A DNA stretch of 64,000 bases from Myxococcota bacterium (GCA_022842935.1 JALHOP010000014.1:58053-122052); one strand, 5' to 3'; shown: positions 9,095 through 22,632, counted from the first letter of the stretch. Numbers and translations: made by a program. The notes: generated by a model not told the origin, from the sequence alone.

Positions 9095-9802
9095 TCAGCC
9101 TTCGTCGTCTTCTTCGCCGTCCGGCTTCTTTCCGAGGGGCAGATTGTCGATGTAACCAGAGTGGCGCAGATACGCGCGCAGTCGGCTGCGCAGCCGTGAC
9201 TCGGCGGTGCGAACCTTCATGCGGGTGCTACCAATGGCCTCCGCCGTCTCTTCTTGGCCGCGACCTTCGGCGAAGCGCAACACGAGCAAGCTACGGTCGT
9301 GCTCATCGAGGTCGCCCATGAACTTGTCGATGAGCGTCTTGAGCTCGGTCGTCTCCATCTTGGTGTCTTGTGATGGAGAGGGCTGGCCGTAGAGGAGCCC
9401 CGTGAACTCCTCGGTGACCTCGTCGTCCATGACGGTGAGGTGGCTGCGCTCATCGGAGCCCGAGATGTATTCACTGAAGGCGATTTCGCGATTGCGGAAC
9501 TGGTTGATCACCATGTTGCGCGCGATCGCGAGCACCCAGTTGGTGAACGAGTAGGCGCCGTTGTACGAGTTGCGCGCCTTCGCTTCGAACGCCCGCCGGA
9601 AGACCTCTTGCACGGCGGACTTCAGCTCACTCGGGTCCTGGATACCCTTGAAGTAGAAGTTGCCGGTGGCGCTGCGGAAGCTGAAGCCCTTGCGCAAGAA
9701 CGACGTCACACCCGGCGCGTAGTGCCGGTAGACCTCGTCCATCGCCTTGCGATCGCCCTTCTTGAAGGCCTCGAGGAGCTTTGGATTCTTGGCAAGAAAC
9801 AT
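9095..9802 (-). CDS. RNA polymerase sigma-70 family (ECF-type) sigma factor
   Basis: 235 aa. Region-2-like FTNWVLAIARNMVINQFR and region-4 HTH LLVLRFAEGRGQEETAEAIGSTRMKVRTAESRLRSRLRAYL. Confidence 0.8.
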   Translation of the reverse strand: MFLAKNPKLLEAFKKGDRKAMDEVYRHYAPGVTSFLRKGFSFRSATGNFYFKGIQDPSELKSAVQEVFRRAFEAKARNSYNGAYSFTNWVLAIARNMVINQFRNREIAFSEYISGSDERSHLTVMDDEVTEEFTGLLYGQPSPSQDTKMETTELKTLIDKFMGDLDEHDRSLLVLRFAEGRGQEETAEAIGSTRMKVRTAESRLRSRLRAYLRHSGYIDNLPLGKKPDGEEDDEG

Positions 9803-9890
9803 GGAGCGTTAGTCCACGCTACGTAGCGCGAGATCCCTCTATGAAGCCAGGAAAACGAAAGCACCAGGAACCTTCTCGAGCCCAGCGAAC

Positions 9891-9919
9891 GGGGATGGAG
9901 GGGAATGGAGGGAATGGAG
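9891..9919 (+). repeat. Three tandem copies of a 9-10 bp unit GG(G)RATGGAG in the sigma/lexA divergent intergenic region
   Basis: Read directly: GGGGATGGAG GGGAATGGAG GGAATGGAG, followed by GAACCAGGAAC which echoes CACCAGGAACC at about 9862. Confidence 0.6.
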
Positions 9920-9979
9920 GAACCAGGAACTTTCCCGCCGACGCGACTCCGCGTACGCGCTTGACGGTCTTTTCCATTG

Positions 9980-10010
9980 CTGAACATTTGACACGTGTTC
10001 AAGCGTTCAG
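9980..10010 (+). promoter_or_regulatory. Candidate LexA (SOS) operator: CTGAAC / GTTCAG half-sites
   Basis: CTGAACATTTGACACGTGTTCAAGCGTTCAG lies 13-40 nt upstream of the lexA start. Contains the GTTCAG half-site and inverted CTGAAC; about 13 of 17 match to the myxobacterial-type consensus CTRHAMRYBYGTTCAGS as recalled. Confidence 0.35.
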
Positions 10011-10022
10011 TAATTTTGCGGA

Positions 10023-10721
10023 ATGACCGACCGCCCCGAGCTCACCGATCGCCAGCGCGAAGTTTATGAGTTCATTCAAGATCGCATTCGGGCCTGGGGC
10101 TATCCGCCAACGATCCGCGAGATCGGCGAGCACCTCGGTATCCGCTCCACCAACGGCGTCGCCGACCACCTCAAGGCGCTAAAGCGTAAGGGTTATTTGC
10201 AGCAGCAAGACATGAAGTCGCGCACCCTCATGCTGGTCAACGAAGAGCCGACCAACAACAAGCGCTCGGAATCCGTCGGCAGCAACGTCGTGCGCGCCCT
10301 CTTCCCGTCCAGCGGTAGCGGTCGCAGCCTCGAGATCCCCATCCTGGGTCGGGTCGCCGCAGGTGAGCCCATCCTTGCCGAGGAGCACGCCGAGGGGTCG
10401 GTCGTCGTCGACTCGATGTTGGTCGGCGACGGCAAGAAGCTCTTCGCCCTCAAAGTCGTCGGCGAGTCCATGATCGACGACGGCATCTACGACGGCGACT
10501 ACATCTTCGTACGCAAGCGGGCCCACGCCGAGCCCGGCGAGATCGTCGTCGTCATCATCGAGAACGAAGCCACCGTGAAGCGATTCTACCCCGAAGGCGA
10601 TCGCATCCGCCTGCAGCCGGCCAACGCCAGCATGAAACCCATTTACGTCGACAAGAAAGACTTCAAGCAGGTTCAAATCATCGGACTCGTCGTTGGAGTC
10701 TATCGCCGCCTGCCCGGCTGA
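10023..10721 (+). CDS. lexA: LexA repressor (SOS response transcriptional repressor / S24 peptidase)
   Basis: 232 aa. N-terminal winged HTH (YPPTIREIGEHLGIRSTNGVADHLKALKRKGYL), Ala-Gly cleavage site (VAAGEP), catalytic Ser in GESM and Lys in VKRF. Confidence 0.9.
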   Translation: MTDRPELTDRQREVYEFIQDRIRAWGYPPTIREIGEHLGIRSTNGVADHLKALKRKGYLQQQDMKSRTLMLVNEEPTNNKRSESVGSNVVRALFPSSGSGRSLEIPILGRVAAGEPILAEEHAEGSVVVDSMLVGDGKKLFALKVVGESMIDDGIYDGDYIFVRKRAHAEPGEIVVVIIENEATVKRFYPEGDRIRLQPANASMKPIYVDKKDFKQVQIIGLVVGVYRRLPG

Positions 10722-10747
10722 GTTGGCCACGGCGCGACCCTGCCGAG

Positions 10748-11248
10748 GTGACAGACATCGGCTCGTCACCAATCGCCGATACCCGGGACAGCCAGTCAAC
10801 AAACGGGGTCCTCGTGGGTGATTTGTCTGTTCCGAAGCCGTCCACTGCCACAGCACAGTCGACCGCGACGCAGGCGACCAGTGGCGCGGCGTTGCAACTC
10901 CCTATGCCGCCAGAGCACCCCAGCTTCGCCGTCGTCGCTCTCAAGGTCCTGCGCGCGCAGAAGCCGAATGCGTTGGTTGATCAGTTCGCGACCGAGACCG
11001 GCATCGGCATGCTCCTGAATGGCAAGTCGGGCCGCATCAAAGAGGTTGCCAACATCACGGTCGGTCCCGACCGCATCAGCTGCAATGTCACGGTCGCCGA
11101 ATACAGCGCATTCGATGGCGGGTTCACGCCGAATGGCCCGTCGAGGACCTACGCCGTCGTCATCCAAGGCGAGACTCTCGCGACGCTCATCGCAGCCCTG
11201 AAGGCCGAGCCGCCCATGCACTCCGGCAACGCCATCGTCTTCGGCTAA
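10748..11248 (+). CDS. Hypothetical protein
   Basis: 166 aa with good GC3 bias; the overlapping minus-strand ORF is Arg-rich and less protein-like. Confidence 0.5.
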   Translation: MTDIGSSPIADTRDSQSTNGVLVGDLSVPKPSTATAQSTATQATSGAALQLPMPPEHPSFAVVALKVLRAQKPNALVDQFATETGIGMLLNGKSGRIKEVANITVGPDRISCNVTVAEYSAFDGGFTPNGPSRTYAVVIQGETLATLIAALKAEPPMHSGNAIVFG

Positions 11249-11283
11249 GCCGCTCATCGCGATCGATGCGCGTGGTGCGGGGG

Positions 11284-11478
11284 CTACTCGTCCCCGTGCC
11301 CGTTGAGACTGTCATCGCCATCGGGCGCCGCTAGGCGTGCGTCGATCTCGTCCATGAGCTCGAGGAGCTCGTCGACGCGTGACTCGAGCCGAGACAGGTC
11401 GTCTTTGGTGACCAAGCCGGGGTTCCCGGCAACAAGCCACTCCTTGAGTGTGTCGAACATCGATTCGTTCGCGGCCAT
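11284..11478 (-). CDS. Small hypothetical coiled-coil protein
   Basis: 64 aa, acidic helical sequence (LSRLESRVDELLELMDEIDARL). Only weakly supported. Confidence 0.3.
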   Translation of the reverse strand: MAANESMFDTLKEWLVAGNPGLVTKDDLSRLESRVDELLELMDEIDARLAAPDGDDSLNGHGDE

Positions 11479-11555
11479 GCCCGAAACCTACGGCGGGTGG
11501 CAGTCCTCGTCAAACGTTGCACCTTCGCGCCCGACATGCGACGGAACGCGCCGCC

Positions 11556-12485
11556 ATGGCGTTTCTCCCCAGGCTTCGCGTCGTCACCGGTAAAGGTGGA
11601 GTCGGTAAGACCACCGTCGCGGCGGCCCTCGCGCTGGCAGAGGCGCGTCGCGGCAGACGCGTTTTGCTCGCCGAAGTGAACGGGCGTGACCGAGCTTCGC
11701 TTCTCCTCGGCGTCGAGCCTACCGGCAGCAAGCTCACAAGCGTGCTCCCAAACATCGCGCTCGTCGACATGAACCCACGCGACACGCTGCGCGAGTACGT
11801 ACTGCTCACGTTCAAGTTCGAGACCGTCTACAAAGCGGTCTTCGAGAATCGCGTGGTGAAGAATTTCCTGCGGCTCACCCCAAGCCTCGGGGAACTGATG
11901 ATGCTCGGGAAGGTCTGGTACCACGAACGCGAACGCGAGGACGACCGGCCCCGCTTCGACGTCATCGTGCTCGACGCACCAGCCACAGGGCACGCCATCG
12001 CGATGTTGCGCGCTCCTGGCGTGGTGCAAGCAACGGTACCGGCGGGCCCGCTCCGCGAAAACGCACGCTTGATCGATCAACTGCTTCGCGACACCAAACG
12101 CTCTACCGTCCACGTCGTCACGACACCGGAAGAAATGCCTGTGAACGAGGCGGTGGAAATAGAGCGTGCCGTCTGCGACGAGCTCGGCATGCGAATCGGC
12201 ATCACGTTCTTGAACCAGCGCGTCACCGCGCTGCCGCCAGAGATCGTACCAACGCTAAACGTGTCCGCCAAAGAAGACAAACGGCTTACCGACGCAGCGC
12301 ATGTCCTGCATGCGCGTGAAGTGCGGCGGCTTGCCGGCGAGGAGAATCTTCAGCGCCTTCCGCACAAGATGTTGCGTGACTCAGTGAGTATCCCACGCAT
12401 CGTCGGTGCTGACTTCGGTCTTCAAAGTCTCGAAGCGATTGCGGACGTTGTCGCGAAAGCCCTCGCGCGCGAGGTCGAGCAATGA
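11556..12485 (+). CDS. ArsA/Get3-family P-loop ATPase (anion-transporting ATPase-like), paralog 1
   Basis: Start chosen at internal ATG (MAFLPRLRVVTGKGGVGKTT). P-loop GKGGVGKTT and ArsA-type signature DAPATGH. Confidence 0.8.
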   Translation: MAFLPRLRVVTGKGGVGKTTVAAALALAEARRGRRVLLAEVNGRDRASLLLGVEPTGSKLTSVLPNIALVDMNPRDTLREYVLLTFKFETVYKAVFENRVVKNFLRLTPSLGELMMLGKVWYHEREREDDRPRFDVIVLDAPATGHAIAMLRAPGVVQATVPAGPLRENARLIDQLLRDTKRSTVHVVTTPEEMPVNEAVEIERAVCDELGMRIGITFLNQRVTALPPEIVPTLNVSAKEDKRLTDAAHVLHAREVRRLAGEENLQRLPHKMLRDSVSIPRIVGADFGLQSLEAIADVVAKALAREVEQ

Positions 12486-13609
12486 GTCGACCGATCTGGG
12501 AAGGTCGCAAAGTCGTCGTCAACGTCGGCACCGGGGGCGTCGGCAAGACCACGGTCTCGGCGGCGATGGCCGTTGCGGCCGCAGCGAGTGGGCGCCGAAC
12601 CCTGGTGATGACCATCGACCCCGCGCGACGCCTCGCGAACGCGCTTGGTTTGCCGTCGTTCGGCAACGTGGAGCACGAGATCGAGCAGGAGCAGCTCGCG
12701 CCTTACGGCGTCCAGCTGAAGGCGCCCCTGTGGGCGATGATGCCCGACGTGAAGAGAACCTTCGACGAGCTCGTCGAGCGCTTCGCTCCGAACGACGAGA
12801 AGAAGCGCGCCATTCTAGGAAACCGCATTTATCAGCACTTCTCGACTGTCCTCGTCGGCTCGCACGAGTACGCGGCGGTCGAAAAGCTCCACGAAGTGTA
12901 CGCGAGCGGCAAATACGATCTCATCGTTCTCGACACACCTCCATCGGGAAACGCGGTCGACTTTCTCGAGGCGCCGAGCCGCATCATCGACTTCCTCGAG
13001 CAAGACACGGTGCAGTGGCTCGTGAAACCCTATGCGGCTGCCGGTCGCTTCTCGCTGAAGCTCCTCGACGTCGGCAGCTCCTTCATCAGCAAGAGCGTGG
13101 GCAAGCTCGCTGGCGCCGAGACCCTCCGCGAGCTCGCCGAGTTCGTACTTGGGTTCCAGGGCATGTACGAGGGTTTCCGCGAGCGCTCGCGTCGTGTCCG
13201 CGAGCTGCTGGCATCCGACGAGGTCGCCTTCAATCTCGTATCGAGCACGCAGCGCGCGCAGCACGACGCGATGTTCCGCTTCAAAGAAGAGCTCGCTACG
13301 GAGGGCTTGAAGGTCCGGGCCCTGGTCGTCAATCGCGTGCGCAACGTGCCACCCGGCGCGGCCACCCCAAAGACGCTCGAGGCGGTACGAGCCGCCCTGC
13401 AGACCTTGGCCCCAGGCGCCGCCGAACAAGCGCTGAGCGCGCTCGCCGAGGAAGCAACGCTCGCCTCAAACGACCGCGACGCCATTCAGAACTTGTCCGA
13501 GCGCCTGGGTCACGTCAGCACGATTCTCTTGCCCGAGCTCGCCAGTGACGTGCATGACCTCGCTAGCCTCTCGGCCCTTCATTCCTATTTCCTCCAAGGC
13601 GCGACATGA
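12482..13609 (+). CDS. ArsA/Get3-family P-loop ATPase, paralog 2
   Basis: 375 aa. ATGA start/stop overlap with paralog 1. P-loop GTGGVGKTT, signature DTPPSGN. Confidence 0.8.
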   Translation: MSRPIWEGRKVVVNVGTGGVGKTTVSAAMAVAAAASGRRTLVMTIDPARRLANALGLPSFGNVEHEIEQEQLAPYGVQLKAPLWAMMPDVKRTFDELVERFAPNDEKKRAILGNRIYQHFSTVLVGSHEYAAVEKLHEVYASGKYDLIVLDTPPSGNAVDFLEAPSRIIDFLEQDTVQWLVKPYAAAGRFSLKLLDVGSSFISKSVGKLAGAETLRELAEFVLGFQGMYEGFRERSRRVRELLASDEVAFNLVSSTQRAQHDAMFRFKEELATEGLKVRALVVNRVRNVPPGAATPKTLEAVRAALQTLAPGAAEQALSALAEEATLASNDRDAIQNLSERLGHVSTILLPELASDVHDLASLSALHSYFLQGAT

Positions 13610-14562
13610 GCGGCCGAAACACAACACCTGAACCAGCCGACAATCGACCACCCATGGTGTTCGTGCGTCTCGCCGCCCTTCTCGTCGCCTTTTTGGGGGC
13701 AAGTGTCGCCCACGCCGGTCCCCGTGATTTCTCGCTCATCGGCCTCGGGCGCCCCCAGAGCAACGAGCTTTCCGACCCCTCCGTGGCCCGCTATCGGGCC
13801 TTGGCGACCGAGCTCGCGTTCGTGGTCGGCCCGCGGGTACTCGCGGGCGCGGACAGTCTGGGTGCCGCCGGCTTCGAGCTCGCCTTCGCTCTCAACTACA
13901 CCGGCATCAGCGGCAGCGCGGACTACTGGCAGGGCTCACCTTCGGCCCCTGTTTTCGAGAGCGCGGTCAGCGGCGGTACGACGCCGGGCGGCTTTTGGTC
14001 ACCGACCTTGCAAGTTCGCAAGGGCCTTCCATTTTCGACCGACCTCGCGCTCAGCATGGCTTACCTCGGCTCGAGCTCGATGGTTGCCCTCGGGCTCGAC
14101 GCCAAGGTGGGCCTCTTCGAGGCTTATTTGCCGCGTTATGTTCCGGACGTCGCCCTGCGCGCCGCAGTGGGCCATCTCGTCGGCGCGAGCGAGCTGACGC
14201 AAACGACGCTCGAGTTCGACGTGCTCGCCTCATACACCATCATATGGAAGGCGGCGGTTCGCCTCACACCATCGCTTGGCATTGGCCGCATGCTGGTTCG
14301 CACGAGCAGCGGGGTCCTCGACGCGACGCCGGCCGAGGTGGTTGACCCCGCGGATCAGACGTTCGCGCCCGGAGGCTCACTCTATCGCTTCCCGACACTT
14401 GGCTTCGGTGACAATCACATCACGCGCCTGTTCTTGGGATGCCACGCCGTGTATGGCTTCGGATTCGCGGGCTACTTTCTCGACCTCGGCTTCGTACCGT
14501 CGGGCATCGGGGCCGCCAGCACACACGTCAGCCACACCCTCAAGGTCGGTCTCAACATCTGA
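13606..14562 (+). CDS. Secreted hypothetical protein (N-terminal signal peptide)
   Basis: 318 aa. ATGA overlap with the preceding ATPase. Signal-like MVFVRLAALLVAFLGASVAHA; Gly/Ala/Ser-rich beta-type composition. Confidence 0.65.
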   Translation: MSGRNTTPEPADNRPPMVFVRLAALLVAFLGASVAHAGPRDFSLIGLGRPQSNELSDPSVARYRALATELAFVVGPRVLAGADSLGAAGFELAFALNYTGISGSADYWQGSPSAPVFESAVSGGTTPGGFWSPTLQVRKGLPFSTDLALSMAYLGSSSMVALGLDAKVGLFEAYLPRYVPDVALRAAVGHLVGASELTQTTLEFDVLASYTIIWKAAVRLTPSLGIGRMLVRTSSGVLDATPAEVVDPADQTFAPGGSLYRFPTLGFGDNHITRLFLGCHAVYGFGFAGYFLDLGFVPSGIGAASTHVSHTLKVGLNI

Positions 14563-14693
14563 TGCAGGTGCCTTATCTTCCAGAGCTCCTGCTCACCCTG
14601 TTCATCCTTGCGATGGTCTTCAGCGCGCACAATCTGCGACGCCTCGGCGACAACTTCGGCCGTCTTCTAGAGCGGACATTCGGCAAGCGCTAA
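14562..14693 (+). CDS. TatA/TatE-like mini-protein (single TM helix + amphipathic helix), 43 aa
   Basis: ATG overlaps the TGA of the previous gene (TGATG). MQVPYLPELLLTLFILAMVFSAHNLRRLGDNFGRLLERTFGKR matches the TatA pattern (TM helix, hinge, L-R-x-L-G-x-x-F/L-G...F-K), but hinge Gly is replaced by Ser. Confidence 0.4.
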   Translation: MQVPYLPELLLTLFILAMVFSAHNLRRLGDNFGRLLERTFGKR

Positions 14694-14700
14694 AAGAGTT

Positions 14701-16620
14701 TTATTGTTCGGCGGGCTCGCTGGGAGCGTCTTCGTCGGCGTCGCGCGCCTTGCGTTTCATCTTCGTGCGCTTGGCCTTCATCTTGGCCTTGTTCTGCGAG
14801 AGGTCATGCTCGACGGCTGGCGACTTGCTCGACCCATCGTCGTTCGGCGCGACGACCTGGGGCGGCGCGGGTTGCGCGGGCTCCGCTGGCCGAGCCGGGG
14901 CGGTCACCTGAACGGCTGGCGCGGTCTGCACCAAGTGAACACGGTGGCGGCTCGAACGCAGCTCGCGGGGGGCGGGAGAGACGACCACCATGAAGGGCAA
15001 ACGCTCGCCCGGCGCGATGGTGAGGGGACCGTTCTGCTTTGCGGCGAAGGCGCGACGCGCGGAGTCGGGTGTTTCGAGACGAGCCAGCTCAGCGACGCTC
15101 AAGACAACACCGAGCGCCCCACGCGCTTCGGCGAGCAAGGTGTCGTCTTGCTTGCGGACCTGGGCGACGATCTCGAGGTTCGAGACGGGCTGCGTGCTGG
15201 TGTTCTTCACCTCACCCGTGAACACGAGGATCTTGCCATACGCCGTGGGATACAAGACCGACCGCATCGAGGTGGGCTGCACGCCCAGAATTCCTGACGC
15301 GCCTTCGATGCCATCGCCGCGCACGATGCGTTCCGGATCACGTAGCACTTCGATGTCGAGCTGCCCACTGCGGACCAACGCGAAAACAGCGAGCCCAAGG
15401 AGCACGAGCGACAGCATGACGGTCGTGGCGGCGCGAACGAAACGTGTCGCCGAGGTCACCTCGGGTGGGGGTGCCGCGCGCGGGACCCCGTCCTGGGTCA
15501 ACCCCTCGCCGAGCCCACCGCGGATGGGTCGTGTCTCACGACGCTGCTCGAGGCGGCCAAGCTCGAGGTTGTGAACCGCCGTCTGCCCCTCGAAGGCGTT
15601 GATCGCGGGCCGTGTGAGCTCTTGCGGGGGCGAAAAAGTGCCGTCCGACGACAAGCCACCGCTCATCAACAGCTCGGCGTCGTCCTGCTGAGGTACGGCG
15701 CGCGCCATGAGCGCGGGGTCGATGCGACCGACGAATGTCTCCATGCCACCGCCAGCGGAGAGCATCGCGCTCTGCTGATGTGCCTCGTTGGCAGGCCGGG
15801 TGAGCGACGGCACCTGGATAATCGACGTACGAGCCTGCGTGATGTGGTCTGGGAACGCAGGCACGTTCGACAGCGACTGCGCGCCAGGGCCCGATGCGGC
15901 GGAAAGCGTGATCGGCGGAGCGCTGAGCGACTCGGCGATGAGCGACGGCGTCTGACCCACTTTGGTCACGGACCGTGAGATCTCGCCCGCCATGGGCTGC
16001 GGCGCCGCAGACTCACGCATCAAGCCGCGGTGGTCGATTGTCGGCTCGTCTTCGATGGACACGACGTCATCGTCATCGATGCTGATGACATCGTCGTCGG
16101 TGACCGCAGTCGCCGTGTCGTCGCTGATGTCGATATTCATGAAGTCATTGCCGAGACTCATGCCGTGGGACGCCGGAAAGGCGACACCGCCATGCGACGC
16201 GAGCCCGGGGGCGACCGCCGCCGAGACATCATCGAGAGTCATGCTGAGTCGCGAGGGCGGATCGACGAGCGTCTCGACGTCATCGAAGGTCGTTGGGACC
16301 GGAGCACGGCTTGCAGGCCCGACCATATGCACCGCGGTCTTTGCGTCATGTGGCGACGTATCGAACGCGAAGGTCGGTGGTAGCGTCTCGTGTGCGGTGG
16401 TGTCTCCCTCGAGCGATACCGGCGCACTCAGGCTCTGCTGTTGCGGATTGTCCACTTTAGTGGACGCGAAAGGGTCGAGCGCTTCGACGTCATCGTCATC
16501 GTCGGCATGGACGACGAAGCCGTAACTACACACCGAGCAAGTCACGCGCGCGCCACGGTCGCTCAGACGGCGCGCGTCGAGGCGAAACCTAGTGGAGCAC
16601 TGCGGACATTGAACGATCAT
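14701..16620 (-). CDS. MJ0042-type zinc-ribbon protein with TM segment and C-terminal DUF3426-like domain
   Basis: Start set at MIVQCPQCSTRFRLD...CSVC (zinc-ribbon CxxC...CxxC). Long acidic low-complexity linker, TM AATTVMLSLVLLGLAVFALV, C-terminal beta-rich domain. Confidence 0.7.
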   Translation of the reverse strand: MIVQCPQCSTRFRLDARRLSDRGARVTCSVCSYGFVVHADDDDDVEALDPFASTKVDNPQQQSLSAPVSLEGDTTAHETLPPTFAFDTSPHDAKTAVHMVGPASRAPVPTTFDDVETLVDPPSRLSMTLDDVSAAVAPGLASHGGVAFPASHGMSLGNDFMNIDISDDTATAVTDDDVISIDDDDVVSIEDEPTIDHRGLMRESAAPQPMAGEISRSVTKVGQTPSLIAESLSAPPITLSAASGPGAQSLSNVPAFPDHITQARTSIIQVPSLTRPANEAHQQSAMLSAGGGMETFVGRIDPALMARAVPQQDDAELLMSGGLSSDGTFSPPQELTRPAINAFEGQTAVHNLELGRLEQRRETRPIRGGLGEGLTQDGVPRAAPPPEVTSATRFVRAATTVMLSLVLLGLAVFALVRSGQLDIEVLRDPERIVRGDGIEGASGILGVQPTSMRSVLYPTAYGKILVFTGEVKNTSTQPVSNLEIVAQVRKQDDTLLAEARGALGVVLSVAELARLETPDSARRAFAAKQNGPLTIAPGERLPFMVVVSPAPRELRSSRHRVHLVQTAPAVQVTAPARPAEPAQPAPPQVVAPNDDGSSKSPAVEHDLSQNKAKMKAKRTKMKRKARDADEDAPSEPAEQ

Positions 16621-16713
16621 CGTCGTGCACCAGGGAGACCCGTAGCCGGGTCTCACCAACGCCTGTCGAAGTTATAAATCAGCAGCCAGCTTGCGCAAAC
16701 TAACTGATCAAGT

Positions 16714-19134
16714 ATGTTTCGCAGCGTGAGCGACGGGATCGCCTACGGAGACTACTACCTGCTCGGACGTCTCGGGACCGGCGGTACGGCCGAGGTGTTC
16801 CTGGGTAAGCGGCTGGGTGACGGCGTAGGCGGAGCTCTATTCGCCGTGAAGCGTCTGTTGACGCAATTCTCGGGCAACCCCGACCTCGTGAAGACGTTTC
16901 AGGACGAGTCGCGCATCGCTAGCGTCCTATGGCACCCCAACATCGCCGAGACGGTCGATTCAGGGATCAACAACAAGCAGCACTTCCTCGTCATGGAGTT
17001 CATCCACGGCAAGGACTTGAAGAGCATCCAGCAGCGGGCACGCAAGGGCGGTTCCCGACTTCCTTACGTCGCGAGCGCTTACATCATCGCGGCCATTGCC
17101 GACGCTCTCGAATACGCGCATGAGTGTGAGCCCCCCGAAGGTCTCGGCACCTCGATTGTCCACCGCGACCTGAGCCCGCAGAAGATCTTGGTCTCATACG
17201 ATGGCGTTCCGAAAGTCATCGACTTCAGCGCCCGCGACGCAAAGAGCCGCGGCATCGAGGGGCGTATTGGGTCCATCAAGGGGCGGTTTGGATACCTTGC
17301 GCCCGAACAGGCAACGAGCAACCCGGCCGACCGACGCTCGGACGTCTTTTCACTCGGGGTCATCCTCTACGAGCTGACCACTGGCATGGCTCCGTTCAGA
17401 GGCGGGAGCGACGCCGCAACCCTCGGCAAGGTCGCGCGCGCCAGCTTCTCCCCGCCCGAGCTTGTGAACGCCAGTATGCCTCGGGTGCTCGGGAAGATCA
17501 TCGAACGTGCCATGCAGCGCGACCCCGACAAGCGCTACCAGACGCCAAACGAAATGGCCGAGGCCCTGCGAACCTTCATCCGTGATGACGGACAGGTCAT
17601 CGACAAGGGCGAGTTAGCTCGACTCGTGCGTGAGCTCTTCGCCGACGACTACGAGCGCGAGAAGGTGCGTGTCGAACAATACCGCCGCCTGACGCCGCCG
17701 GCTGCTTCGGGGTCGGGTAACAAGCCAGTAGCGATGGGCGACAGCATCACTGCGGGTGGCCCCGAAGGCTCGCTCGCGAGCAACACGCGAGACGAACGCA
17801 CGACCGCTAACGAGCACTCGTTCGCTAGTATCGACGACGACGACGACACCGGGGTGAATGACGCCGCCGGCGACCCCATCGCCGAACACTTCGAGCGGAC
17901 CGATACCGGCATCGCTGACACGGGTTTGCATCAACAACTCGTGGACAGCGGCGTTCACCCCATCATCGACACGGGCGCGCATCACGCGACGCCCAAGACC
18001 GACGTGCACGACGTGGCCGGCACGAGTGTCCACGATGTCCCACCGGCCTCGGTGGTCATGGCCGCCGAGGCGGTGCAAAGTCAGGACTTCGAGGTCTCGA
18101 CCGAACAGCTGTCGCTGATGCCCTTCGAGCCCACTCCCAGTGTCACCACGGCGACGGCGGTCCCCGATGCCGACACGAAGCCGGTGGCCGGTGACTTCGA
18201 CTTGTCATTCGACGAGGTCATCCCGCAGTTCGACGACGAGCCAACCGGTGCCGACGACCCCGGCGCGCGCGCCCCCGCGAGCAAGGCATCGGACTTCCCT
18301 GAGAACCCGTGGGCGCAAGAGTCGGCGGCATCCACGGTGAGCTTCAACATACCGCCCGCGGCTCTAGGAGAAGGTCCGACGGTGGTGGCCGATCCGCTGT
18401 TCGGCAATCAGGGTCCGAGTGACTCTCTCTTCCAGATCAAAACGCCAACCGCCGCTTCACCGTCGATCATCTTCGAGGCGAAGACAAAGGTCTACGAAGA
18501 GAGCATCGCGGACCTCGTTCGCCGCACGCAGCCGTCGGGCTTTGGCGTAGAGATCACAAAGCAAGACAACGCGCCGGCGAAAGCGGAAAAGGCGCAGATG
18601 TCGGCGGTGATCGCCGCTGTAAGTCCGCTCGCCGCTGCCACCACCGTCGAGCCGCTCCACGCGGCCACGACCGTGCAGCCGATGCACGTCGCCACTGTGG
18701 TGGCCACGCCCCCCGAAAAGGCGATCACCGAGGTCGCGCTACCTCAACCCAAGCCCAAGAAAAAGAAGGGACGCGGACTCTCGAAGATCGAAGAAAACGA
18801 GGGCGACACCGAGACCGACAAGGTCAACGACGACGACCTCTTCCTGGACGACGAAGCCTTCGCGAAATCGGGGCCGCTCCCTGACGAGTTCGAGGCACCG
18901 AAAACCACCGCGAACGCCGTTCCCGGCGCCATGCTGGCCGAGGCGTCCGAGCCACCCGAGGACCTCGACGAATACGAAGAAGTCGGTCGCTTCTTTTCAC
19001 GCAGTGATCTGATCACCCTCGTGGTCGCCGCATTCATGGGTCTTCTCATCATGACGGCGTCATATGTGTACGCCCTCAACGTGCCCCTGCCCGATCAACC
19101 CTCCACCGGCGAGCAGTTCGACGGCAGTCACTGA
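16714..19134 (+). CDS. Ser/Thr protein kinase-like protein with C-terminal TM anchor (atypical catalytic motifs)
   Basis: 806 aa. Gly loop LGTGGTAEV, FAVKRL (Lys), HRDLSPQK instead of HRDLKPxN, DFS instead of DFG, YLAPEQ; long acidic linker; C-terminal TM LITLVVAAFMGLLIMTASYVYAL. Confidence 0.8.
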   Translation: MFRSVSDGIAYGDYYLLGRLGTGGTAEVFLGKRLGDGVGGALFAVKRLLTQFSGNPDLVKTFQDESRIASVLWHPNIAETVDSGINNKQHFLVMEFIHGKDLKSIQQRARKGGSRLPYVASAYIIAAIADALEYAHECEPPEGLGTSIVHRDLSPQKILVSYDGVPKVIDFSARDAKSRGIEGRIGSIKGRFGYLAPEQATSNPADRRSDVFSLGVILYELTTGMAPFRGGSDAATLGKVARASFSPPELVNASMPRVLGKIIERAMQRDPDKRYQTPNEMAEALRTFIRDDGQVIDKGELARLVRELFADDYEREKVRVEQYRRLTPPAASGSGNKPVAMGDSITAGGPEGSLASNTRDERTTANEHSFASIDDDDDTGVNDAAGDPIAEHFERTDTGIADTGLHQQLVDSGVHPIIDTGAHHATPKTDVHDVAGTSVHDVPPASVVMAAEAVQSQDFEVSTEQLSLMPFEPTPSVTTATAVPDADTKPVAGDFDLSFDEVIPQFDDEPTGADDPGARAPASKASDFPENPWAQESAASTVSFNIPPAALGEGPTVVADPLFGNQGPSDSLFQIKTPTAASPSIIFEAKTKVYEESIADLVRRTQPSGFGVEITKQDNAPAKAEKAQMSAVIAAVSPLAAATTVEPLHAATTVQPMHVATVVATPPEKAITEVALPQPKPKKKKGRGLSKIEENEGDTETDKVNDDDLFLDDEAFAKSGPLPDEFEAPKTTANAVPGAMLAEASEPPEDLDEYEEVGRFFSRSDLITLVVAAFMGLLIMTASYVYALNVPLPDQPSTGEQFDGSH
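18631..18715 (+). repeat. Imperfect about 27-30 bp tandem repeat x3 inside the kinase linker (encodes AATTVEPLH / AATTVQPMH / VATVVATPP)
   Basis: Read directly from nucleotide and protein. Confidence 0.4.
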
Positions 19135-19914: not shown

Positions 19915-21240
19915 TCAATAGCCGAGCCGAGGCCCCCACGACGGCGTCTCGACGTCGCCCTGAACGCGGGCGATGAGACGCTGATTATTGCCGTCGACGT
20001 CCATGATGTAGAGGCGTCGGCCGCCCGCGCCGGCCCGGGTCGACACGAACGCGATGTGGTGACCGTCGGGCGAGTGCGTCGGCGACTCGTTGTTGCCTTC
20101 GTCCTGGGTGAGCCGCGTGATGACGCCAGTGTCCGGGTCGACCACGAAGATGTCGTACTTCATGCGCTCGTCGCGCGCCGTGAAGGCGATTTGCCCGCCA
20201 GCGCGCGGCGACCAGTCGGGCTCTTGGTTGTAGTTGCCCTGGAAGGTCAAGCGGCGGGCATTCGAGCCATCGGCGTTCATGACGTAGATGTGCGGGTTGC
20301 CGGCCCGCGACGAGACGAACGCAATGCGTGAGCCGTCGGGGCTCCACGTCGGCGAGACGTCCTGGCCCCATGAGTCGGTGAGACGGCGGACGTTACCGCC
20401 GCCAACATCCATCACGTAAATCTCCGTGTTGCCGTCGACCGACAAGGTCAGCGCGATGCGGCGCCCGTCAGGTGAGACTTGCGCTCCAGTGTTCAGGCCA
20501 CGTTGGTTGGAGAGGTTCTTGGCGTTCTGGCCGTCGAGCCCGATACGCCACAGGTCGGGATTTCCGTCGGCGTACGAGGTGTAGATGATGCCCGCGCCAC
20601 CCGGGAGCCAGGCAGGCAAGAGCGACAGAATGCCCTCGGCGGTGATGCGACGCTCGGCGCCCCCGTCCATGTCGGCGACGAAGACGGCCTTACCGCCACG
20701 CGTCTTGCGCACGTAAGCGAGGTGCGACGAGAAGATGCCCTTTTCGCCTGTGAGCGTCTCGATGAGCTCATCGAGAAACTTATGGATGGCGCGTGAGCCG
20801 CGGTCGATGCTCTCGTCGTACTCGCGGGCCAGTACTTCACGCTGCGCGACGACGTCGTAAAAGCGCAGGTTGATCTTCGCGTTTTTGCCAGCCACCGCGA
20901 CGGTGCCGCGGATGAGGCCCGAGGCGCCGACATTGGTCCAGTTCTGGAAGTTGGGCTTGGTGACCGGCTCCTTGTCGGGAGCGAGGTAGGTGTTCGGCGG
21001 AACAAGCTCGAGCGAGCGCGCCAGGTCGACGTCGATCTGCAGGATGGCCGAGAGCTCTTTGGCCACCTTGTTGGCGTCACCGCCAGCGGGGACGATGTCG
21101 GGAGCCGCCACTGGATAGGGACGGAAGTTCGCGCCGCCAACAGCGATTTGCATGCGTTGCGCGGACGCGGGGACCGCGACCAAGAGCGCGCCGACGACCA
21201 AGATAAGCTTACGGAACGATTTCGTCATGACGGCTCGCAC
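19915..21240 (-). CDS. tolB: Tol-Pal system beta-propeller protein TolB
   Basis: 441 aa. Signal peptide, N-terminal TolB domain and repeated propeller blades (DVSPTWSPDGSRIAF, NESPTHSPDGHHIAF). Alternative start at Met5 (21228). Confidence 0.85.
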   Translation of the reverse strand: MRAVMTKSFRKLILVVGALLVAVPASAQRMQIAVGGANFRPYPVAAPDIVPAGGDANKVAKELSAILQIDVDLARSLELVPPNTYLAPDKEPVTKPNFQNWTNVGASGLIRGTVAVAGKNAKINLRFYDVVAQREVLAREYDESIDRGSRAIHKFLDELIETLTGEKGIFSSHLAYVRKTRGGKAVFVADMDGGAERRITAEGILSLLPAWLPGGAGIIYTSYADGNPDLWRIGLDGQNAKNLSNQRGLNTGAQVSPDGRRIALTLSVDGNTEIYVMDVGGGNVRRLTDSWGQDVSPTWSPDGSRIAFVSSRAGNPHIYVMNADGSNARRLTFQGNYNQEPDWSPRAGGQIAFTARDERMKYDIFVVDPDTGVITRLTQDEGNNESPTHSPDGHHIAFVSTRAGAGGRRLYIMDVDGNNQRLIARVQGDVETPSWGPRLGY

Positions 21241-21350
21241 TACAGCACAACTTGCGACTCACGTTGAAGTAATTCGAGGCCTCGCCACGGAGGTTCGCCT
21301 GCGGCAGGTGCATGGCCGAACACCCGGGCCCGCCGAGGTGGGCGCCCCTG

Positions 21351-22073
21351 TTAGGGCGTGAACGTGACTTCGAACCCATCTTTGCGCGCTTGTTCGGCGA
21401 TCTCGGCGTCAGGGGGAGAGACCTTGGCGCACTTCTGCGCGGCGTTCTTCACCGCCGAGTCGAACCGCTGGTCGCCGCTCGACTTGGTGATCTCGAGGTC
21501 GGAAAGCCGGCCGTCTTTCTGGACGCTGATCGCGATCTTGGCCGACTTACCCGCAGCCTGCGCCGGCGACATCCCGAGCAGATCCCAGTGCGCCTTCATG
21601 CAAGCGTAGACCTCGCTCGCAAGCTTGTTGCCGGCGAGCGCCTTGTTGGTCGTGCCGTACTGCGAACCGTCTTCGCGACCCTCGGGCTCTTCCTGGTTCT
21701 TCAGGCGGTCGAGCGCGTTCTGCACCTTGCTCATCTGCGACAAGCGGTCCTTGGCCGATGGCGTCGCGTCTTTGGGAGGCGTGGGCTTCGCCTGCGGGGG
21801 CGGATCGGTCGGGGCTGTCTGCGGTGGCGGGTCCGCCTTTTCTGGCGGCGGTGGCGGCTCGTCCTTGCGCGGCAACAGGTCTTTGGGTCGCTCTTTGCCG
21901 AGGCGTACGAGCTCAGTGACGATGACATTCTGAGCGGGCTTACGGCTATGCGCGGACTTGATGGTGACGAGCGCGACGATGACCACGCCGACATGCGCTA
22001 TCACGGACACCAAGATCGCCCGGCTTAGAGACGTCGACTTTCGGCGTCGGTTGTCGACTTGTCCGAGCTGCAT
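21351..22073 (-). CDS. TonB/TolA-family energy transducer (TolA-like by context)
   Basis: 240 aa. N-terminal TM (ILVSVIAHVGVVIVALV), Pro-rich spacer, C-terminal TonB-type domain. Confidence 0.7.
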   Translation of the reverse strand: MQLGQVDNRRRKSTSLSRAILVSVIAHVGVVIVALVTIKSAHSRKPAQNVIVTELVRLGKERPKDLLPRKDEPPPPPEKADPPPQTAPTDPPPQAKPTPPKDATPSAKDRLSQMSKVQNALDRLKNQEEPEGREDGSQYGTTNKALAGNKLASEVYACMKAHWDLLGMSPAQAAGKSAKIAISVQKDGRLSDLEITKSSGDQRFDSAVKNAAQKCAKVSPPDAEIAEQARKDGFEVTFTP

Positions 22074-22085
22074 CGCGCGTCGCCC

Positions 22086-22502
22086 CTACTTCTTCGGTTG
22101 CACCGGGTCGGTCACCATTCCGAGGTTCGTGACTCCCGCGTCCTTGATGATCGCCATGAGGTCGACCACGACTCCGTACGGCAAGTTGCGATCGGCGTGG
22201 AGGTAGAGCTGCTTGTCACGCGCGAGCTTGGTATTGCCCACCAGCTTGTCGCGCAGCTGCGCGTACGGAATCTCGGTCTCGCCAATGAAGATGTGACGAT
22301 CTTTGGTGACCGTTAGCACCAGGCGGTCTTCTTGGACGTCGAGCGTCGGCGCCTTGGTCTGCGGTAGGTCGACCGGCACACCCTGCTGAATGAGCGGCGC
22401 GGTCACCATGAAGATGATGAGCAACACCAACATCACGTCGACCATCGGCGTAACGTTGATCTCGGCTAGCGCGCGGCCTGAGCCTGAAACCTGCATCGCC
22501 AT
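22086..22502 (-). CDS. tolR: ExbD/TolR-family biopolymer transport protein
   Basis: 138 aa. Characteristic INVTPMVDVMLVLLIIFMV TM segment. Confidence 0.8.
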   Translation of the reverse strand: MAMQVSGSGRALAEINVTPMVDVMLVLLIIFMVTAPLIQQGVPVDLPQTKAPTLDVQEDRLVLTVTKDRHIFIGETEIPYAQLRDKLVGNTKLARDKQLYLHADRNLPYGVVVDLMAIIKDAGVTNLGMVTDPVQPKK

Positions 22503-22632
22503 GGCTTAGAGCGTTCTCGCAACCCGCAGATGAGAGCGTCGAGGCGTGTGGCGGGTCATGAGACACGCTCTCGTCCCTTTCGGGCCTGGTGGTTCGCTTG
22601 GCTAGTTTGCCTGCCTTTGGCAGACGCTGGTC

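What the first reader, a model, noticed from the sequence alone, without database searches (positions are those of the whole stretch)
11556..14693. Translationally coupled operon: two ArsA/Get3-like ATPases, a secreted protein and a TatA-like mini-protein
Four consecutive genes share start/stop overlaps (ATGA at 12482, ATGA at 13606, TGATG at 14562). Two paralogous ArsA-family P-loop ATPases (GKGGVGKTT/DAPATGH and GTGGVGKTT/DTPPSGN) are followed by a 318-aa signal-peptide protein and a 43-aa ORF with a TatA/TatE-like single TM plus amphipathic helix. There are no arsenic-resistance partners (arsB/arsC/arsR/arsD) and no tatC. ArsA relatives (Get3) act in membrane-protein targeting in eukaryotes and archaea, so this linkage could reflect a dedicated membrane-insertion or secretion module rather than metalloid efflux.
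Basis: partly seen in the sequence, partly recalled or inferred. Interest (0 to 1): 0.7.

Follow-up and report, generated by a model that had tools for sequence, protein, structure and literature searches.

The report
Get3-like ATPases with mini-TatA operon
A myxobacterial gene row encodes a pair of Get3-like (BagA/BagB) ATPases, an unnamed outer-membrane barrel protein and a 43-residue version of the Tat export subunit TatA; the parts belong to known kinds, it has nothing to do with arsenic, and a looser version of the same neighbourhood recurs in other myxobacteria.

Summary
The four genes are real. Genes 1 and 2 best match M. tuberculosis BagA/BagB (Rv3679/Rv3680, PDB 6BS3), a Get3-fold heterodimer, not ArsA: they are separate genes, lack the cysteine triad, and no ars gene lies within about 10 kb. 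Gene 3 is a Sec-exported protein predicted to form a roughly 10-stranded outer-membrane beta-barrel. Its family has no Pfam or NCBIfam model but about 1,100 cluster representatives. Its start is probably 13654, not 13606, so only two of the three claimed overlaps are likely functional (bagA/bagB and g3/g4). Gene 4 is a true TatA homologue (profile-profile probability 96.6%). It evolves like a coding gene and keeps little beyond the transmembrane and amphipathic helices.

The same gene order recurs in relatives down to about 61% BagB identity. In Myxococcaceae and Anaeromyxobacter-like genomes the same genes sit within about 9 kb in a looser order. A missing tatC is uninformative, because M. 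xanthus tatA is unlinked to tatBC.

Best reading: this is a compacted version of a neighbourhood shared by part of the Myxococcota, and gene 4 is the lineage's minimal TatA. A dedicated BagAB-dependent insertion module is neither excluded nor shown. Interest is moderate: a new variant of known kinds.

The parts
11556..12485 (+). bagA-like gene (309 aa): single-domain Get3/ArsA-fold ATPase with the full deviant Walker A motif GKGGVGKTT and switch II DAPATGH
   Evidence: Best NCBIfam hit is BagA (NF053622, 133 bits, below the 400-bit equivalog cut-off), against 49 bits for the ArsA equivalog. Best solved structure is 6bs3_A, Rv3679, E 1e-21. The 309-aa length matches the gene called in L001. Pfam ArsA_ATPase E 6e-22.
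12482..13609 (+). bagB-like gene (375 aa): paralogous ATPase lacking the signature lysine (GTGGVGKTT), with switch II DTPPSGN. Its ATG overlaps the bagA stop (ATGA).
   Evidence: Best NCBIfam hit is BagB (NF053621, 277 bits, cut-off 521) over residues 9-367. Best solved structure is 6bs3_B, Rv3680, E 1e-53 over nearly the full length. At least 7,990 homologues at E<=1e-20, many labelled Myxococcota. The protein contains no cysteine.
13654..14562 (+). g3 (302 aa from 13654; alternative ATG at 13606 gives 318 aa): Sec-type signal peptide (MVFVRLAALLVAFLGASVAHA|G), an N-terminal helix, then a predicted beta-barrel of about 10 strands, assigned to the outer membrane. The family is unnamed.
14562..14693 (+). 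g4 (43 aa): minimal TatA homologue with a transmembrane helix carrying Glu8, an FS hinge, and an amphipathic helix ending in TFGKR. Its ATG overlaps the g3 stop by one base (TGATG).
   Evidence: NCBIfam tatAE and TatA hits are weak (E 0.03-0.05). A profile of the short forms against canonical TatA gives hhalign probability 96.6%, E 6e-10. JGI names identical or near-identical 43-aa proteins TatA. The sequences grade into Pfam-positive TatA downstream of g3 in L012, L003 and L043. Codon comparison gives 13 synonymous versus 4 non-synonymous differences. The one-base overlap is the same in L001, L004 and L010.
14701..16659 (-). Context: a convergent gene for a 652-aa membrane protein with an N-terminal MJ0042-type zinc ribbon. 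It is the conserved neighbour of tatA across the Myxococcota loci sampled.
   Evidence: Pfam Zn_ribbon_4 and Zn_ribbon_5. The same convergent neighbour is present in L001, L010 and L096 and in L017, L045, L108, L163, L173 and L177. It is homologous to the Pyxidicoccus protein at both the N-terminal ribbon (E 3e-8) and the C-terminal domain (E 2e-6).
11284..11478 (-). Context: a 64-aa ORF divergent from bagA. A small minus-strand ORF is called at the same position in relatives. Function unknown.
   Evidence: ORFs of 64, 59, 58 and 52 aa are called on the minus strand directly upstream of bagA in L001, L004, L093 and L095. No Pfam hit. No detectable similarity to the phasin-like ORF at the equivalent place in Pyxidicoccus.

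Best explanation
The locus is a clade-specific, compacted arrangement of genes that are neighbours in part of the phylum Myxococcota. It is not an arsenic system and probably not a self-contained secretion machine.

bagA and bagB encode a cytosolic heterodimeric Get3-fold ATPase like M. tuberculosis Rv3679/Rv3680. One subunit carries the full deviant Walker A lysine and the other lacks it. The two genes are translationally coupled, which suits a 1:1 complex (inferred).

g3 is exported by Sec and assembled as a small outer-membrane beta-barrel (inferred from the model and sequence features).

g4 is the lineage's tatA orthologue, reduced to the transmembrane helix plus amphipathic helix. It inserts into the inner membrane and most probably serves as the oligomerising subunit recruited by a TatBC receptor encoded elsewhere (inferred). 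It is made by re-initiation at the g3 stop codon (inferred from the conserved TGATG overlap).

Shown here: the homologies, the fold class, the coding constraint and the conserved synteny.
Inferred: co-transcription, heterodimer formation, and Tat function of the 43-aa protein.
Still open: whether the linkage of bagAB with g3-tatA reflects co-regulation or shared ancestry rather than a physical pathway.
For: BagA/BagB assignment:
- Best NCBIfam hits are BagA (133 bits) and BagB (277 bits), against 49 bits for the ArsA equivalog.
- Best solved structures are 6bs3_A and 6bs3_B, at E 1e-21 and 1e-53.
- The same K-versus-no-K asymmetry in the P-loop is visible in the alignments to Rv3679 and Rv3680.

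g3 as an outer-membrane barrel.

g4 as TatA.
- It retains Glu8, which aligns with the transmembrane polar position (E. coli Gln8); a transmembrane Glu at position 10 of the plant orthologue Tha4 is reported as crucial (PMC12609122 abstract).
- It retains the two helix glycines aligned to E. coli G29 and G33.
- It ends with F-x-K, in the region of the FK motif that a 2026 review calls essential (PMC13186574).
- The FS hinge is not a defect: Myxococcaceae TatA proteins have FS too.
- Codon comparison is consistent with purifying selection.

Orthologous position:
- tatA followed by the convergent zinc-ribbon gene is conserved in the window, L010 and L096, and in L045 and L060. In L017, L108, L163, L173 and L177 one extra minus-strand gene lies between them.
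- g3 followed by tatA is conserved. Of 62 g3-family metagenome loci with enough downstream sequence, a TatA ORF ends within 450 bp in 10 and within 1.5 kb in 6 more. All the closest g3 relatives have one.

A looser version of the same neighbourhood occurs in the Pyxidicoccus xibeiensis genome assembly: g3, GDPD, tatA, a 267-aa gene, the zinc-ribbon gene, a PhaR-like gene, a ParA-like gene, a phasin-like gene, bagA, bagB. Anaeromyxobacter-like loci show the same.

The compact order, together with LexA upstream and a kinase and Tol genes downstream, recurs in relatives down to 61% BagB identity.

tatA is unlinked to tatBC in M. xanthus (PMC3924187).
Against: - No tatB or tatC, and no twin-arginine signal peptide, was seen in the 64-kb window. 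I could not search the rest of the genome, so Tat function of the 43-aa protein is unproven.
- In the same clade the small ORF varies from 26 to 57 aa, and in some members the amphipathic helix is degraded or missing (L102, L013, L093). This would be odd for an indispensable housekeeping TatA. It leaves room for a second tatA elsewhere, or for a changed function.
- The window's own sequence fails the curated TatA thresholds (13.7 bits against 53.9).
- AlphaFold2 on the single sequence gave one unbroken helix rather than the L-shape. That result is weak.
- Gene neighbourhood retained across such divergent members of a phylum often signals functional coupling, which this reading leaves unexplained.
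Confidence: 0.58

Rival explanations
1. Dedicated targeting module. The BagAB heterodimer works like Get3 and captures the hydrophobic helix of very short membrane proteins that are released from the ribosome before their transmembrane segment emerges. The mini-TatA would be one such client. BagAB would deliver it to the inner membrane or control its assembly.
For: bagAB and tatA lie within 6 kb in 7 of 44 BagB-centred loci from the Myxococcota/'deltaproteobacteria' group, in at least three different arrangements, plus the whole compact clade and Pyxidicoccus. BagAB has the Get3 fold. A 39-45 aa protein cannot be targeted co-translationally (general knowledge of ribosome tunnel length; inference).
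Against: None of the 36 BagB loci outside that group, mostly Actinomycetota, has tatA within 6 kb, and most loci within the group lack it too. In the non-compact arrangement, opposite-strand genes separate the two, so they are not one operon. g3-tatA occurs without bagAB (L003, L104, L110, L114, L115). TatA has an N-terminal anchor rather than a tail anchor, and is generally held to insert unassisted (my own knowledge, not checked here). No interaction data exist.
Confidence: 0.12
2. Neofunctionalised pair. In this clade the TatA-derived mini-protein no longer serves Tat. Instead it works with the co-translated outer-membrane barrel g3, for example as an inner-membrane partner of an envelope-spanning or envelope-stress device, while a canonical TatA is encoded elsewhere.
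For: The g3-tatA adjacency is the tightest and most widespread link: a one-base overlap in the window, L001, L004 and L010, and 16 of 62 g3-family loci overall. One g3-like gene lies 1.1 kb downstream of a tatC gene preceded by a TatA/TatB-family ORF (L151). The short forms carry a clade-specific, strongly conserved tail, AHN(L/V)RR...GRLL(E/Q)RTFGKR. Invariant g3 residues (R122, K123, P126, E156, P164) fall in what standard barrel topology would make periplasmic turns (the topology is inferred).
Against: The more distant g3-tatA pairs carry fully canonical TatA. This suggests the pairing predates any change of function and involves the ordinary TatA. No second tatA has been seen. There is no precedent for a TatA-barrel partnership.
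Confidence: 0.14
3. Decaying relic. The small ORF is a tatA remnant on its way to loss in a clade that is reducing or losing Tat export, and its position after g3 is historical.
For: Length and sequence vary strongly across the clade: 26 aa in L102, 35 aa and barely recognisable in L013, 39 aa in L093.
Against: Within the window's subclade the protein is as conserved as its neighbours: 58% identity against 57% for g3 between the window and L004, and 13 synonymous versus 4 non-synonymous codon changes against L001. The one-base coupling overlap is retained.
Confidence: 0.07
4. Arsenite or antimonite efflux ATPase (ArsA) split into two genes.
For: Pfam ArsA_ATPase hits on both proteins. Public annotations read 'ArsA family ATPase'.
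Against: ArsA equivalog scores are 49 bits against a 650-bit cut-off. BagA has one cysteine and BagB has none, so the three-cysteine metalloid site cannot exist. None of the annotated neighbours within about 10 kb is an ars gene, in the window or in syntenic relatives.
Confidence: 0.01

Closest known systems
BagA/BagB (Rv3679/Rv3680) of Mycobacterium tuberculosis, 'bacterial Get3-like' ATPases; structures 6BS3-6BS5
   Same: - Two adjacent paralogous single-domain genes in the same order.
- Best sequence matches for both proteins.
- The same P-loop asymmetry: GKGG in A, and G(A/T)GG in B.
- bagB aligns over nearly the full length, including the C-terminal extension.
   Different: Only about 30-40% identical and below NCBIfam's equivalog cut-offs. 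The host is a Gram-negative Myxococcota member. The mycobacterial genes are reported in connection with glycerol and nitric-oxide toxicity and citrate tolerance (PMC10597346). No link to tatA was seen in the Actinomycetota loci sampled here.
Get3/TRC40 tail-anchored protein targeting factor
   Same: Same fold superfamily, deviant Walker A motif and dimeric ATPase logic.
   Different: Scores of 75-87 bits fall below the 135-bit subfamily cut-off. There is no CxxC zinc motif, because there are too few cysteines. It is a heterodimer of two paralogues rather than a homodimer. No Get1/Get2-type receptor is known in bacteria.
ArsA arsenite-stimulated ATPase
   Same: Pfam family PF02374 and the P-loop fold.
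   Different: Not a fused A1-A2 protein. No cysteine triad. No ars gene among the annotated neighbours. Equivalog score is far below the cut-off.
TatA/TatE of the twin-arginine translocase (E. coli TatA; M. xanthus MXAN_2960)
   Same: Short N-terminal transmembrane helix with a polar residue near its start, a hinge, and an amphipathic helix with conserved glycines and an F-x-K end. Profile homology is 96.6%. Genomic position is syntenic with canonical Myxococcota tatA.
   Different: Only 43 aa, with no acidic motif and no C-terminal tail. The hinge is FS rather than FG, a trait shared with Myxococcaceae TatA. It fails the curated family thresholds. It is translationally coupled to an outer-membrane protein gene.
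Small outer-membrane beta-barrels (OpcA, OmpT) and autotransporter beta-domains (NalP, EstA, Hbp)
   Different: Sequence identity is 8-13% and TM-scores are only 0.3-0.42. There is no passenger domain and no hit to any Pfam barrel family. This is a resemblance of fold class only.

Membership tests
BagA/BagB (Rv3679/Rv3680-type Get3-like heterodimeric ATPase) | Two adjacent paralogous single-domain ArsA/Get3-fold genes, A then B, each best matching its own counterpart | tested here: met
   Gene 1 scores 133 bits on BagA and 38 on BagB. Gene 2 scores 277 on BagB and 60 on BagA. Best PDB hits are 6bs3_A and 6bs3_B respectively.
BagA/BagB (Rv3679/Rv3680-type Get3-like heterodimeric ATPase) | Score above NCBIfam equivalog cut-offs (400 and 521 bits) | tested here: not met
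   Scores are 133 and 277 bits. The models are labelled as M. tuberculosis equivalogs, so this argues against strict equivalence but not against family membership.
BagA/BagB (Rv3679/Rv3680-type Get3-like heterodimeric ATPase) | Asymmetric P-loops: signature lysine present in A and absent in B | tested here: met
   GKGGVGKTT in A against GTGGVGKTT in B. Rv3679 has GKGGTGKST and Rv3680 has GAGGVGKTT in the alignments.
BagA/BagB (Rv3679/Rv3680-type Get3-like heterodimeric ATPase) | Physical A:B complex with ATPase activity | not testable with these tools
   Suggested only by the conserved ATGA coupling.
ArsA arsenite pump ATPase | Fused tandem A1-A2 domains of about 580 aa, scoring above the TIGR04291 cut-off | tested here: not met
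   Two separate genes of 309 and 375 aa. Scores are 49 bits against a 650-bit cut-off.
ArsA arsenite pump ATPase | Three-cysteine metalloid-binding site | tested here: not met
   One cysteine in gene 1 and none in gene 2 (translations).
ArsA arsenite pump ATPase | ars operon context (arsB/ACR3, arsR, arsC, arsD) | tested here: not met
   None of the annotated neighbours is an ars gene. They include LexA, a sigma factor, the zinc-ribbon protein, a kinase and Tol proteins, plus several ORFs with no Pfam hit, in the window and in relatives.
Get3/TRC40 | TIGR00345 subfamily threshold and CxxC zinc-bridged homodimer | tested here: not met
   Scores are 75 and 87 bits against a 135-bit cut-off. No CxxC motif is possible with one and zero cysteines.
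Get3/TRC40 | Hydrophobic client-binding groove and binding of tail-anchored clients | not tested
   Needs a model of the complex or biochemistry.
TatA/TatE | Match to curated family models (Pfam PF02416; TIGR01411) | tested here: not met
   No Pfam hit at E<=1. TIGR01411 gives 13.7 bits against 53.9. Positional counterparts in L012, L003 and L177 do carry precomputed Pfam hits.
TatA/TatE | Homology of the transmembrane helix, hinge and amphipathic helix to canonical TatA | tested here: met
   hhalign probability 96.6%, E 6e-10, over 33 columns without gaps. A graded series of intermediates exists.
TatA/TatE | Conserved functional residues: polar residue in the transmembrane helix, FG hinge, helix glycines, F-K motif | tested here: inconclusive
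   Glu8, Gly29, Gly33 and a terminal F40-G-K42 are present. The hinge is FS, as in Myxococcaceae TatA. The F-K register is shifted by one residue.
TatA/TatE | Works with TatC (and TatB) to export twin-arginine proteins | not testable with these tools
tatA is unlinked to tatBC in M. xanthus (PMC3924187).
Outer-membrane beta-barrel protein | Cleavable Sec signal peptide, closed antiparallel barrel with an even strand number, and a C-terminal hydrophobic or aromatic beta-signal | tested here: met

The most novel reading that the evidence does not exclude
The recurrent neighbourhood of bagAB, the g3 barrel gene and tatA in Myxococcota reflects a real pathway. In it the bacterial Get3-like BagAB heterodimer chaperones, inserts or regulates assembly of TatA-type mini membrane proteins, possibly together with the outer-membrane barrel. 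That would give BagAB its first defined client and reveal an ATP-dependent step in Tat biogenesis.
Probability: 0.12. Interest if true: 0.78.

Novelty: new variant of a known kind. Interest (0 to 1): 0.45.

Why it matters
The role of bacterial Get3-like ATPases is unsettled. For BagAB I found only phenotypes reported in mycobacteria (glycerol and nitric-oxide toxicity, citrate tolerance; PMC10597346). A 2019 review calls the functions of bacterial Get3 homologues unclear (PMC6593721).

A neighbourhood linking bagAB to tatA and an unnamed barrel family, found in both cultured (Pyxidicoccus, Anaeromyxobacter) and uncultured Myxococcota, suggests a cheap genetic test in Myxococcus xanthus, provided its genome shares the Pyxidicoccus arrangement.

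Separately, the 39-45 aa TatA forms are natural examples of something close to the minimal functional unit. The review's reference list cites a truncation study that defined this unit in E. coli (PMC13186574). The g3 family, about 1,100 representatives with no model in Pfam or NCBIfam, deserves a family definition.

If the linkage is only historical, the locus is ordinary.

Tried and rejected
- The word-indexed homologue search for g3 returned only 11 proteins and suggested a rare protein. The exhaustive profile search found 1,084 representatives, so the rarity was a search artefact.
- The exact-sequence look-up of the window's own BagB failed. The source is known only as an NCBI Myxococcota metagenome-assembled genome with a 184-kb contig.
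- The AlphaFold-database fold library was unavailable.
- The two BagAB papers (PMC6597400, PMC8404711) are not held. What I say about BagAB phenotypes comes from PMC10597346.
- One literature search was wasted on 'bagasse' matches. A whole-word search for Get3 with TatA, Tha4 or Hcf106 listed no top-ranked paper that mentions Get3.
- The promoter and terminator scan was at chance level. Rfam found nothing in 9000-17000.
- A scan of window ORFs for twin-arginine signal peptides found none. This is uninformative for 64 kb.
- AlphaFold2 on the 43-aa protein alone gave one continuous helix. I judged this uninformative about the hinge.
- The diverse g3 alignment A5 was too divergent for the locus scan, so A1 was used.
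- I considered calling the 64-aa divergent ORF phasin-like by position. There was no similarity to the Pyxidicoccus phasin-like ORF, so I dropped the idea.
- My GC3-based gene caller gave unreliable maps for some loci above 70% GC. Those maps were not used.

Full report
**Observation**

The window is about 64% G+C. Between 11556 and 14693 the plus strand carries four ORFs of 309, 375, 318 and 43 codons.
- The three overlap strings are present: ATGA at 12482, ATGA at 13606 and TGATG at 14560-14564.
- The first and third overlaps recur in relatives.
- The second is doubtful. Most homologues of gene 3 are 302-305 aa and start at the equivalent of window 13654. More distant relatives have 67-143 bp between bagB and gene 3.
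- Against the closest relative, L001, the 16 extra codons show 1 synonymous and 6 non-synonymous codon differences. The mature part shows 123 and 26.

I therefore place the start of gene 3 at 13654. That gives two translationally coupled pairs separated by 44 bp. Promoter and terminator scans were at chance level and Rfam found nothing, so a single transcript is inferred, not shown.

**The two ATPases**

Both hit Pfam ArsA_ATPase. NCBIfam separates them clearly.
- Gene 1 scores 133 bits on BagA and gene 2 scores 277 bits on BagB.
- The ArsA equivalog gives 49 bits and the Get3/ArsA/TRC40 subfamily model gives 75-87 bits.
- The best solved structures are the two chains of the M. tuberculosis Rv3679-Rv3680 complex: 6bs3_A at E 1e-21 and 6bs3_B at E 1e-53, the latter aligned over residues 9-367.
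- The P-loop asymmetry is the same as in the mycobacterial pair: GKGG in A, and G(T/A)GG in B.
- Gene 1 has one cysteine and gene 2 has none. Neither the ArsA metalloid site nor the Get3 CxxC zinc site can exist.
- Scores are below the M. tuberculosis equivalog cut-offs. I call these BagA/BagB-family proteins, not proven equivalents.
- The family is large in Myxococcota, with at least 7,990 proteins at E<=1e-20.
- In mycobacteria, bagAB mutants have been linked to glycerol and nitric-oxide toxicity and to citrate tolerance (PMC10597346). A review of Get3-like proteins calls the functions of the bacterial homologues unclear (PMC6593721).

**Gene 3**

It has no Pfam or NCBIfam match, and ten further family members also had no Pfam match.
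- The word-indexed search found 11 relatives. An exhaustive profile search found 1,084 cluster representatives at E<=1e-3 and 303 at E<=1e-30. All named ones are 'hypothetical', including one from the cultured Pyxidicoccus xibeiensis.
- An AlphaFold2 model on a 12-sequence alignment has pLDDT 80 and pTM 0.76. It shows a signal peptide, a helix at residues 42-58, and ten long strands.
- All 50 top Foldseek hits against the PDB are outer-membrane barrels, at modest TM-scores of 0.3-0.42.
- The signal peptide ends in AHA|G with no lipobox cysteine. Every aligned homologue ends in an alternating pattern closed by I, L, V or F, as in an outer-membrane assembly signal.

I conclude that gene 3 encodes an integral outer-membrane barrel of an undescribed family, not a soluble secreted protein.

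The invariant residues (R122, K123, P126, E156, P164) fall in the short turns between strands 2-3 and 4-5. By the usual topology rule these turns face the periplasm (inference).

**Gene 4**

The curated models barely see it: TIGR01411 gives 13.7 bits at E 0.03, and Pfam gives nothing. Other evidence shows it is a real TatA homologue.
- A profile of seven short forms aligns to a profile of canonical TatA proteins with probability 96.6% and E 6e-10. The alignment has no gaps from the transmembrane helix into the amphipathic helix.
- JGI already names identical or near-identical 43-aa proteins TatA.
- The ORF downstream of gene 3 forms a graded series. Fully canonical proteins of 66-82 aa include [25 protein letters not shown] in L003 and L043 (Pfam-positive in L003). 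A 52-aa Pfam-positive form occurs in L012. The 39-45 aa forms come last.
- The window's protein keeps Glu8 in the transmembrane helix. A transmembrane Glu at position 10 of the plant orthologue Tha4 is reported as crucial (PMC12609122 abstract).
- It keeps the two glycines of the amphipathic helix and ends with TFGKR. This is close to the F-K motif that a 2026 review calls essential (PMC13186574).
- The FS hinge, in place of FG, is also present in Myxococcaceae-type TatA sequences, so it is not a sign of decay.
- Against L001 the ORF has 13 synonymous and 4 non-synonymous codon differences, a ratio like that of its neighbours.
- AlphaFold2 on the single sequence predicted one continuous helix, which I regard as uninformative.

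**Gene neighbourhood**

The complete order is: LexA, a small divergent ORF, bagA, bagB, g3, the mini-tatA, a convergent zinc-ribbon membrane protein, a Ser/Thr kinase, TolB and TolA.
- This order recurs in contigs whose BagB is 100-61% identical. Among them are the NCBI assemblies GCA_964484195.1 and GCA_001798655.1.
- A BagB-centred scan of species-representative genomes returned 80 loci. By record title, 44 are Myxococcota or 'deltaproteobacteria' and 36 are other phyla, mostly Actinomycetota.
- TatA lay within 6 kb in seven loci, all from the first group, and in none of the 36 others.
- In the four Anaeromyxobacter-like loci the order is: GDPD, tatA, an unknown gene, the zinc-ribbon gene, a PhaR-like gene, a ParA-like gene, a phasin-like gene, bagA, bagB.
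- The Pyxidicoccus xibeiensis genome assembly has that same series preceded by g3.
- The window's zinc-ribbon protein is homologous to the Pyxidicoccus one at both ends.
- Many Myxococcota loci, including several labelled Polyangiaceae or Polyangiales, show none of these neighbours.

A g3-centred scan of metagenomes gave 80 loci, of which 62 had enough downstream sequence to assess.
- A TatA ORF ends within 450 bp in 10 and within 1.5 kb in 6 more.
- All of the closest g3 relatives have one.
- BagB is directly upstream in only 4 of 52 assessable loci.
- g3-tatA also occurs without bagAB (L003, L104, L110, L114, L115).
- One g3-like gene lies 1.1 kb downstream of a tatC gene preceded by a TatA/TatB-family ORF (L151).

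So g3-tatA is the tight and widespread pair. bagAB is a looser neighbour that has been brought into direct contact only in the window's clade.

**What the missing tatC means**

No TatC-like ORF is in the window. However, the M. xanthus Tat genes are listed as MXAN_2960 for tatA and MXAN_5905-5904 for tatBC, so they are unlinked (PMC3924187). The absence of tatC next to tatA is therefore expected in this phylum and says nothing about a Tat-independent role.

**Best explanation and rivals**

The best-supported reading (confidence about 0.58) is a compacted, clade-specific arrangement of an older Myxococcota neighbourhood. It contains a BagAB-type cytosolic ATPase heterodimer, a Sec- and BAM-dependent outer-membrane barrel, and the lineage's tatA orthologue trimmed to its minimal unit. 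That TatA would work with a TatBC encoded elsewhere.

Two facts weigh against this reading. The small ORF varies in the clade from 26 to 57 aa, with a degraded amphipathic helix in some members. I also could not check the rest of the genome for tatBC or a second tatA.

Rivals:
- BagAB as a Get3-like targeting or assembly factor for the mini-TatA (0.12).
- A neofunctionalised TatA-derived peptide partnered with g3 (0.14).
- A decaying relic (0.07).
- An arsenic pump (0.01).

**Novelty and interest**

Each protein belongs to a known kind or fold class, and the 43-aa ORF is already labelled TatA by one pipeline. What is new:
- The recognition that the ATPases are BagAB-type.
- The observation that an unnamed barrel family is the habitual upstream neighbour of tatA in Myxococcota.
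- The observation that bagAB, g3 and tatA share a neighbourhood in cultured and uncultured Myxococcota.
- The existence of natural 39-45 aa TatA forms.

This gives a testable lead on BagAB function but no demonstrated mechanism. I rate it a new variant of a known kind, with interest 0.45.

Noticed in passing
L177 15384-17205; also L016-L019, L025, L028, L108, L163, L173: bagAB in Myxococcaceae-like and Anaeromyxobacter-like genomes is preceded by a PhaR-like regulator (Pfam PHB_acc_N), a ParA-like ATPase on the opposite strand, and a small phasin-like ORF (faint Pfam hit). This hints at a link between BagAB and storage-granule or lipid biology rather than secretion.
   Followed up: partly
L024, L026, L032, L033, L035, L036, L038, L041, L044, L048, L049, L051, L052, L054, L063, L072, L078, L088: In many loci, mostly labelled Actinomycetota (Thermoleophilaceae, Solirubrobacterales), a ParA-like ORF on the opposite strand starts roughly 0.5-4 kb (mostly 1-2 kb) upstream of the bagA ORF. 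The ParA-like/bagAB association therefore reaches beyond the Myxococcota.
   Followed up: no
L151 1703-5182: A g3-family gene lies about 1.1 kb downstream of a tatC gene that is preceded by a TatA/TatB-family ORF, in a 50% G+C metagenome contig. This is a second kind of linkage between the g3 family and tat genes.
   Followed up: partly
L102 5866-5946; L013 about 4640-4750; L093 3688-3807: In some relatives the TatA-like ORF after g3 is only 26-39 aa, with the amphipathic helix missing or unrecognisable. Constraint on this peptide is therefore uneven across the clade.
   Followed up: partly
L177 11598-12005; L160, L165, L169, L173, L138: Myxococcaceae-type TatA sequences carry VFSAARMGQLGN, an FS rather than FG hinge, and an unusual FVYSFKKA helix end.
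   Followed up: no
window 583-8163: An SseC-family protein (type III secretion translocon-like; Pfam E 6e-9) is followed by large same-strand ORFs. Four of them (2303-3751, 3793-4836, 4904-7048, 7045-8163) were scanned and have no Pfam match. This may be a translocator or effector cluster.
   Followed up: no
window 51800-57175 (-) and 36883-37890 (-): A 1,791-aa protein carries a PT-TG pre-toxin domain (polymorphic toxin). Elsewhere there is an Imm11 plus SUKH-1 immunity-type protein.
   Followed up: no
window 19915-23466 (-): A Tol-type cluster: TolB (Pfam TolB_N and PD40), a TolA/TonB_2-like ORF, an ExbD/TolR-like ORF and a MotA/TolQ protein. The middle two are assigned from the syntenic genes in L001. 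The cluster is syntenic with the bagAB block in L001, L093 and L095.
   Followed up: partly
window 10023-10721 (+): LexA lies directly upstream of the bagAB block and keeps that position in L001, L004, L094, L095 and L013, where it ends 70 bp before the bagA ORF. SOS control of bagAB was not examined.
   Followed up: no
window 10748-11248 (+) and 11284-11478 (-): Two small ORFs with no Pfam match sit between lexA and bagA. ORFs of similar size and orientation are called at the same place in L001, and the minus-strand one also in L004, L093 and L095.
   Followed up: partly
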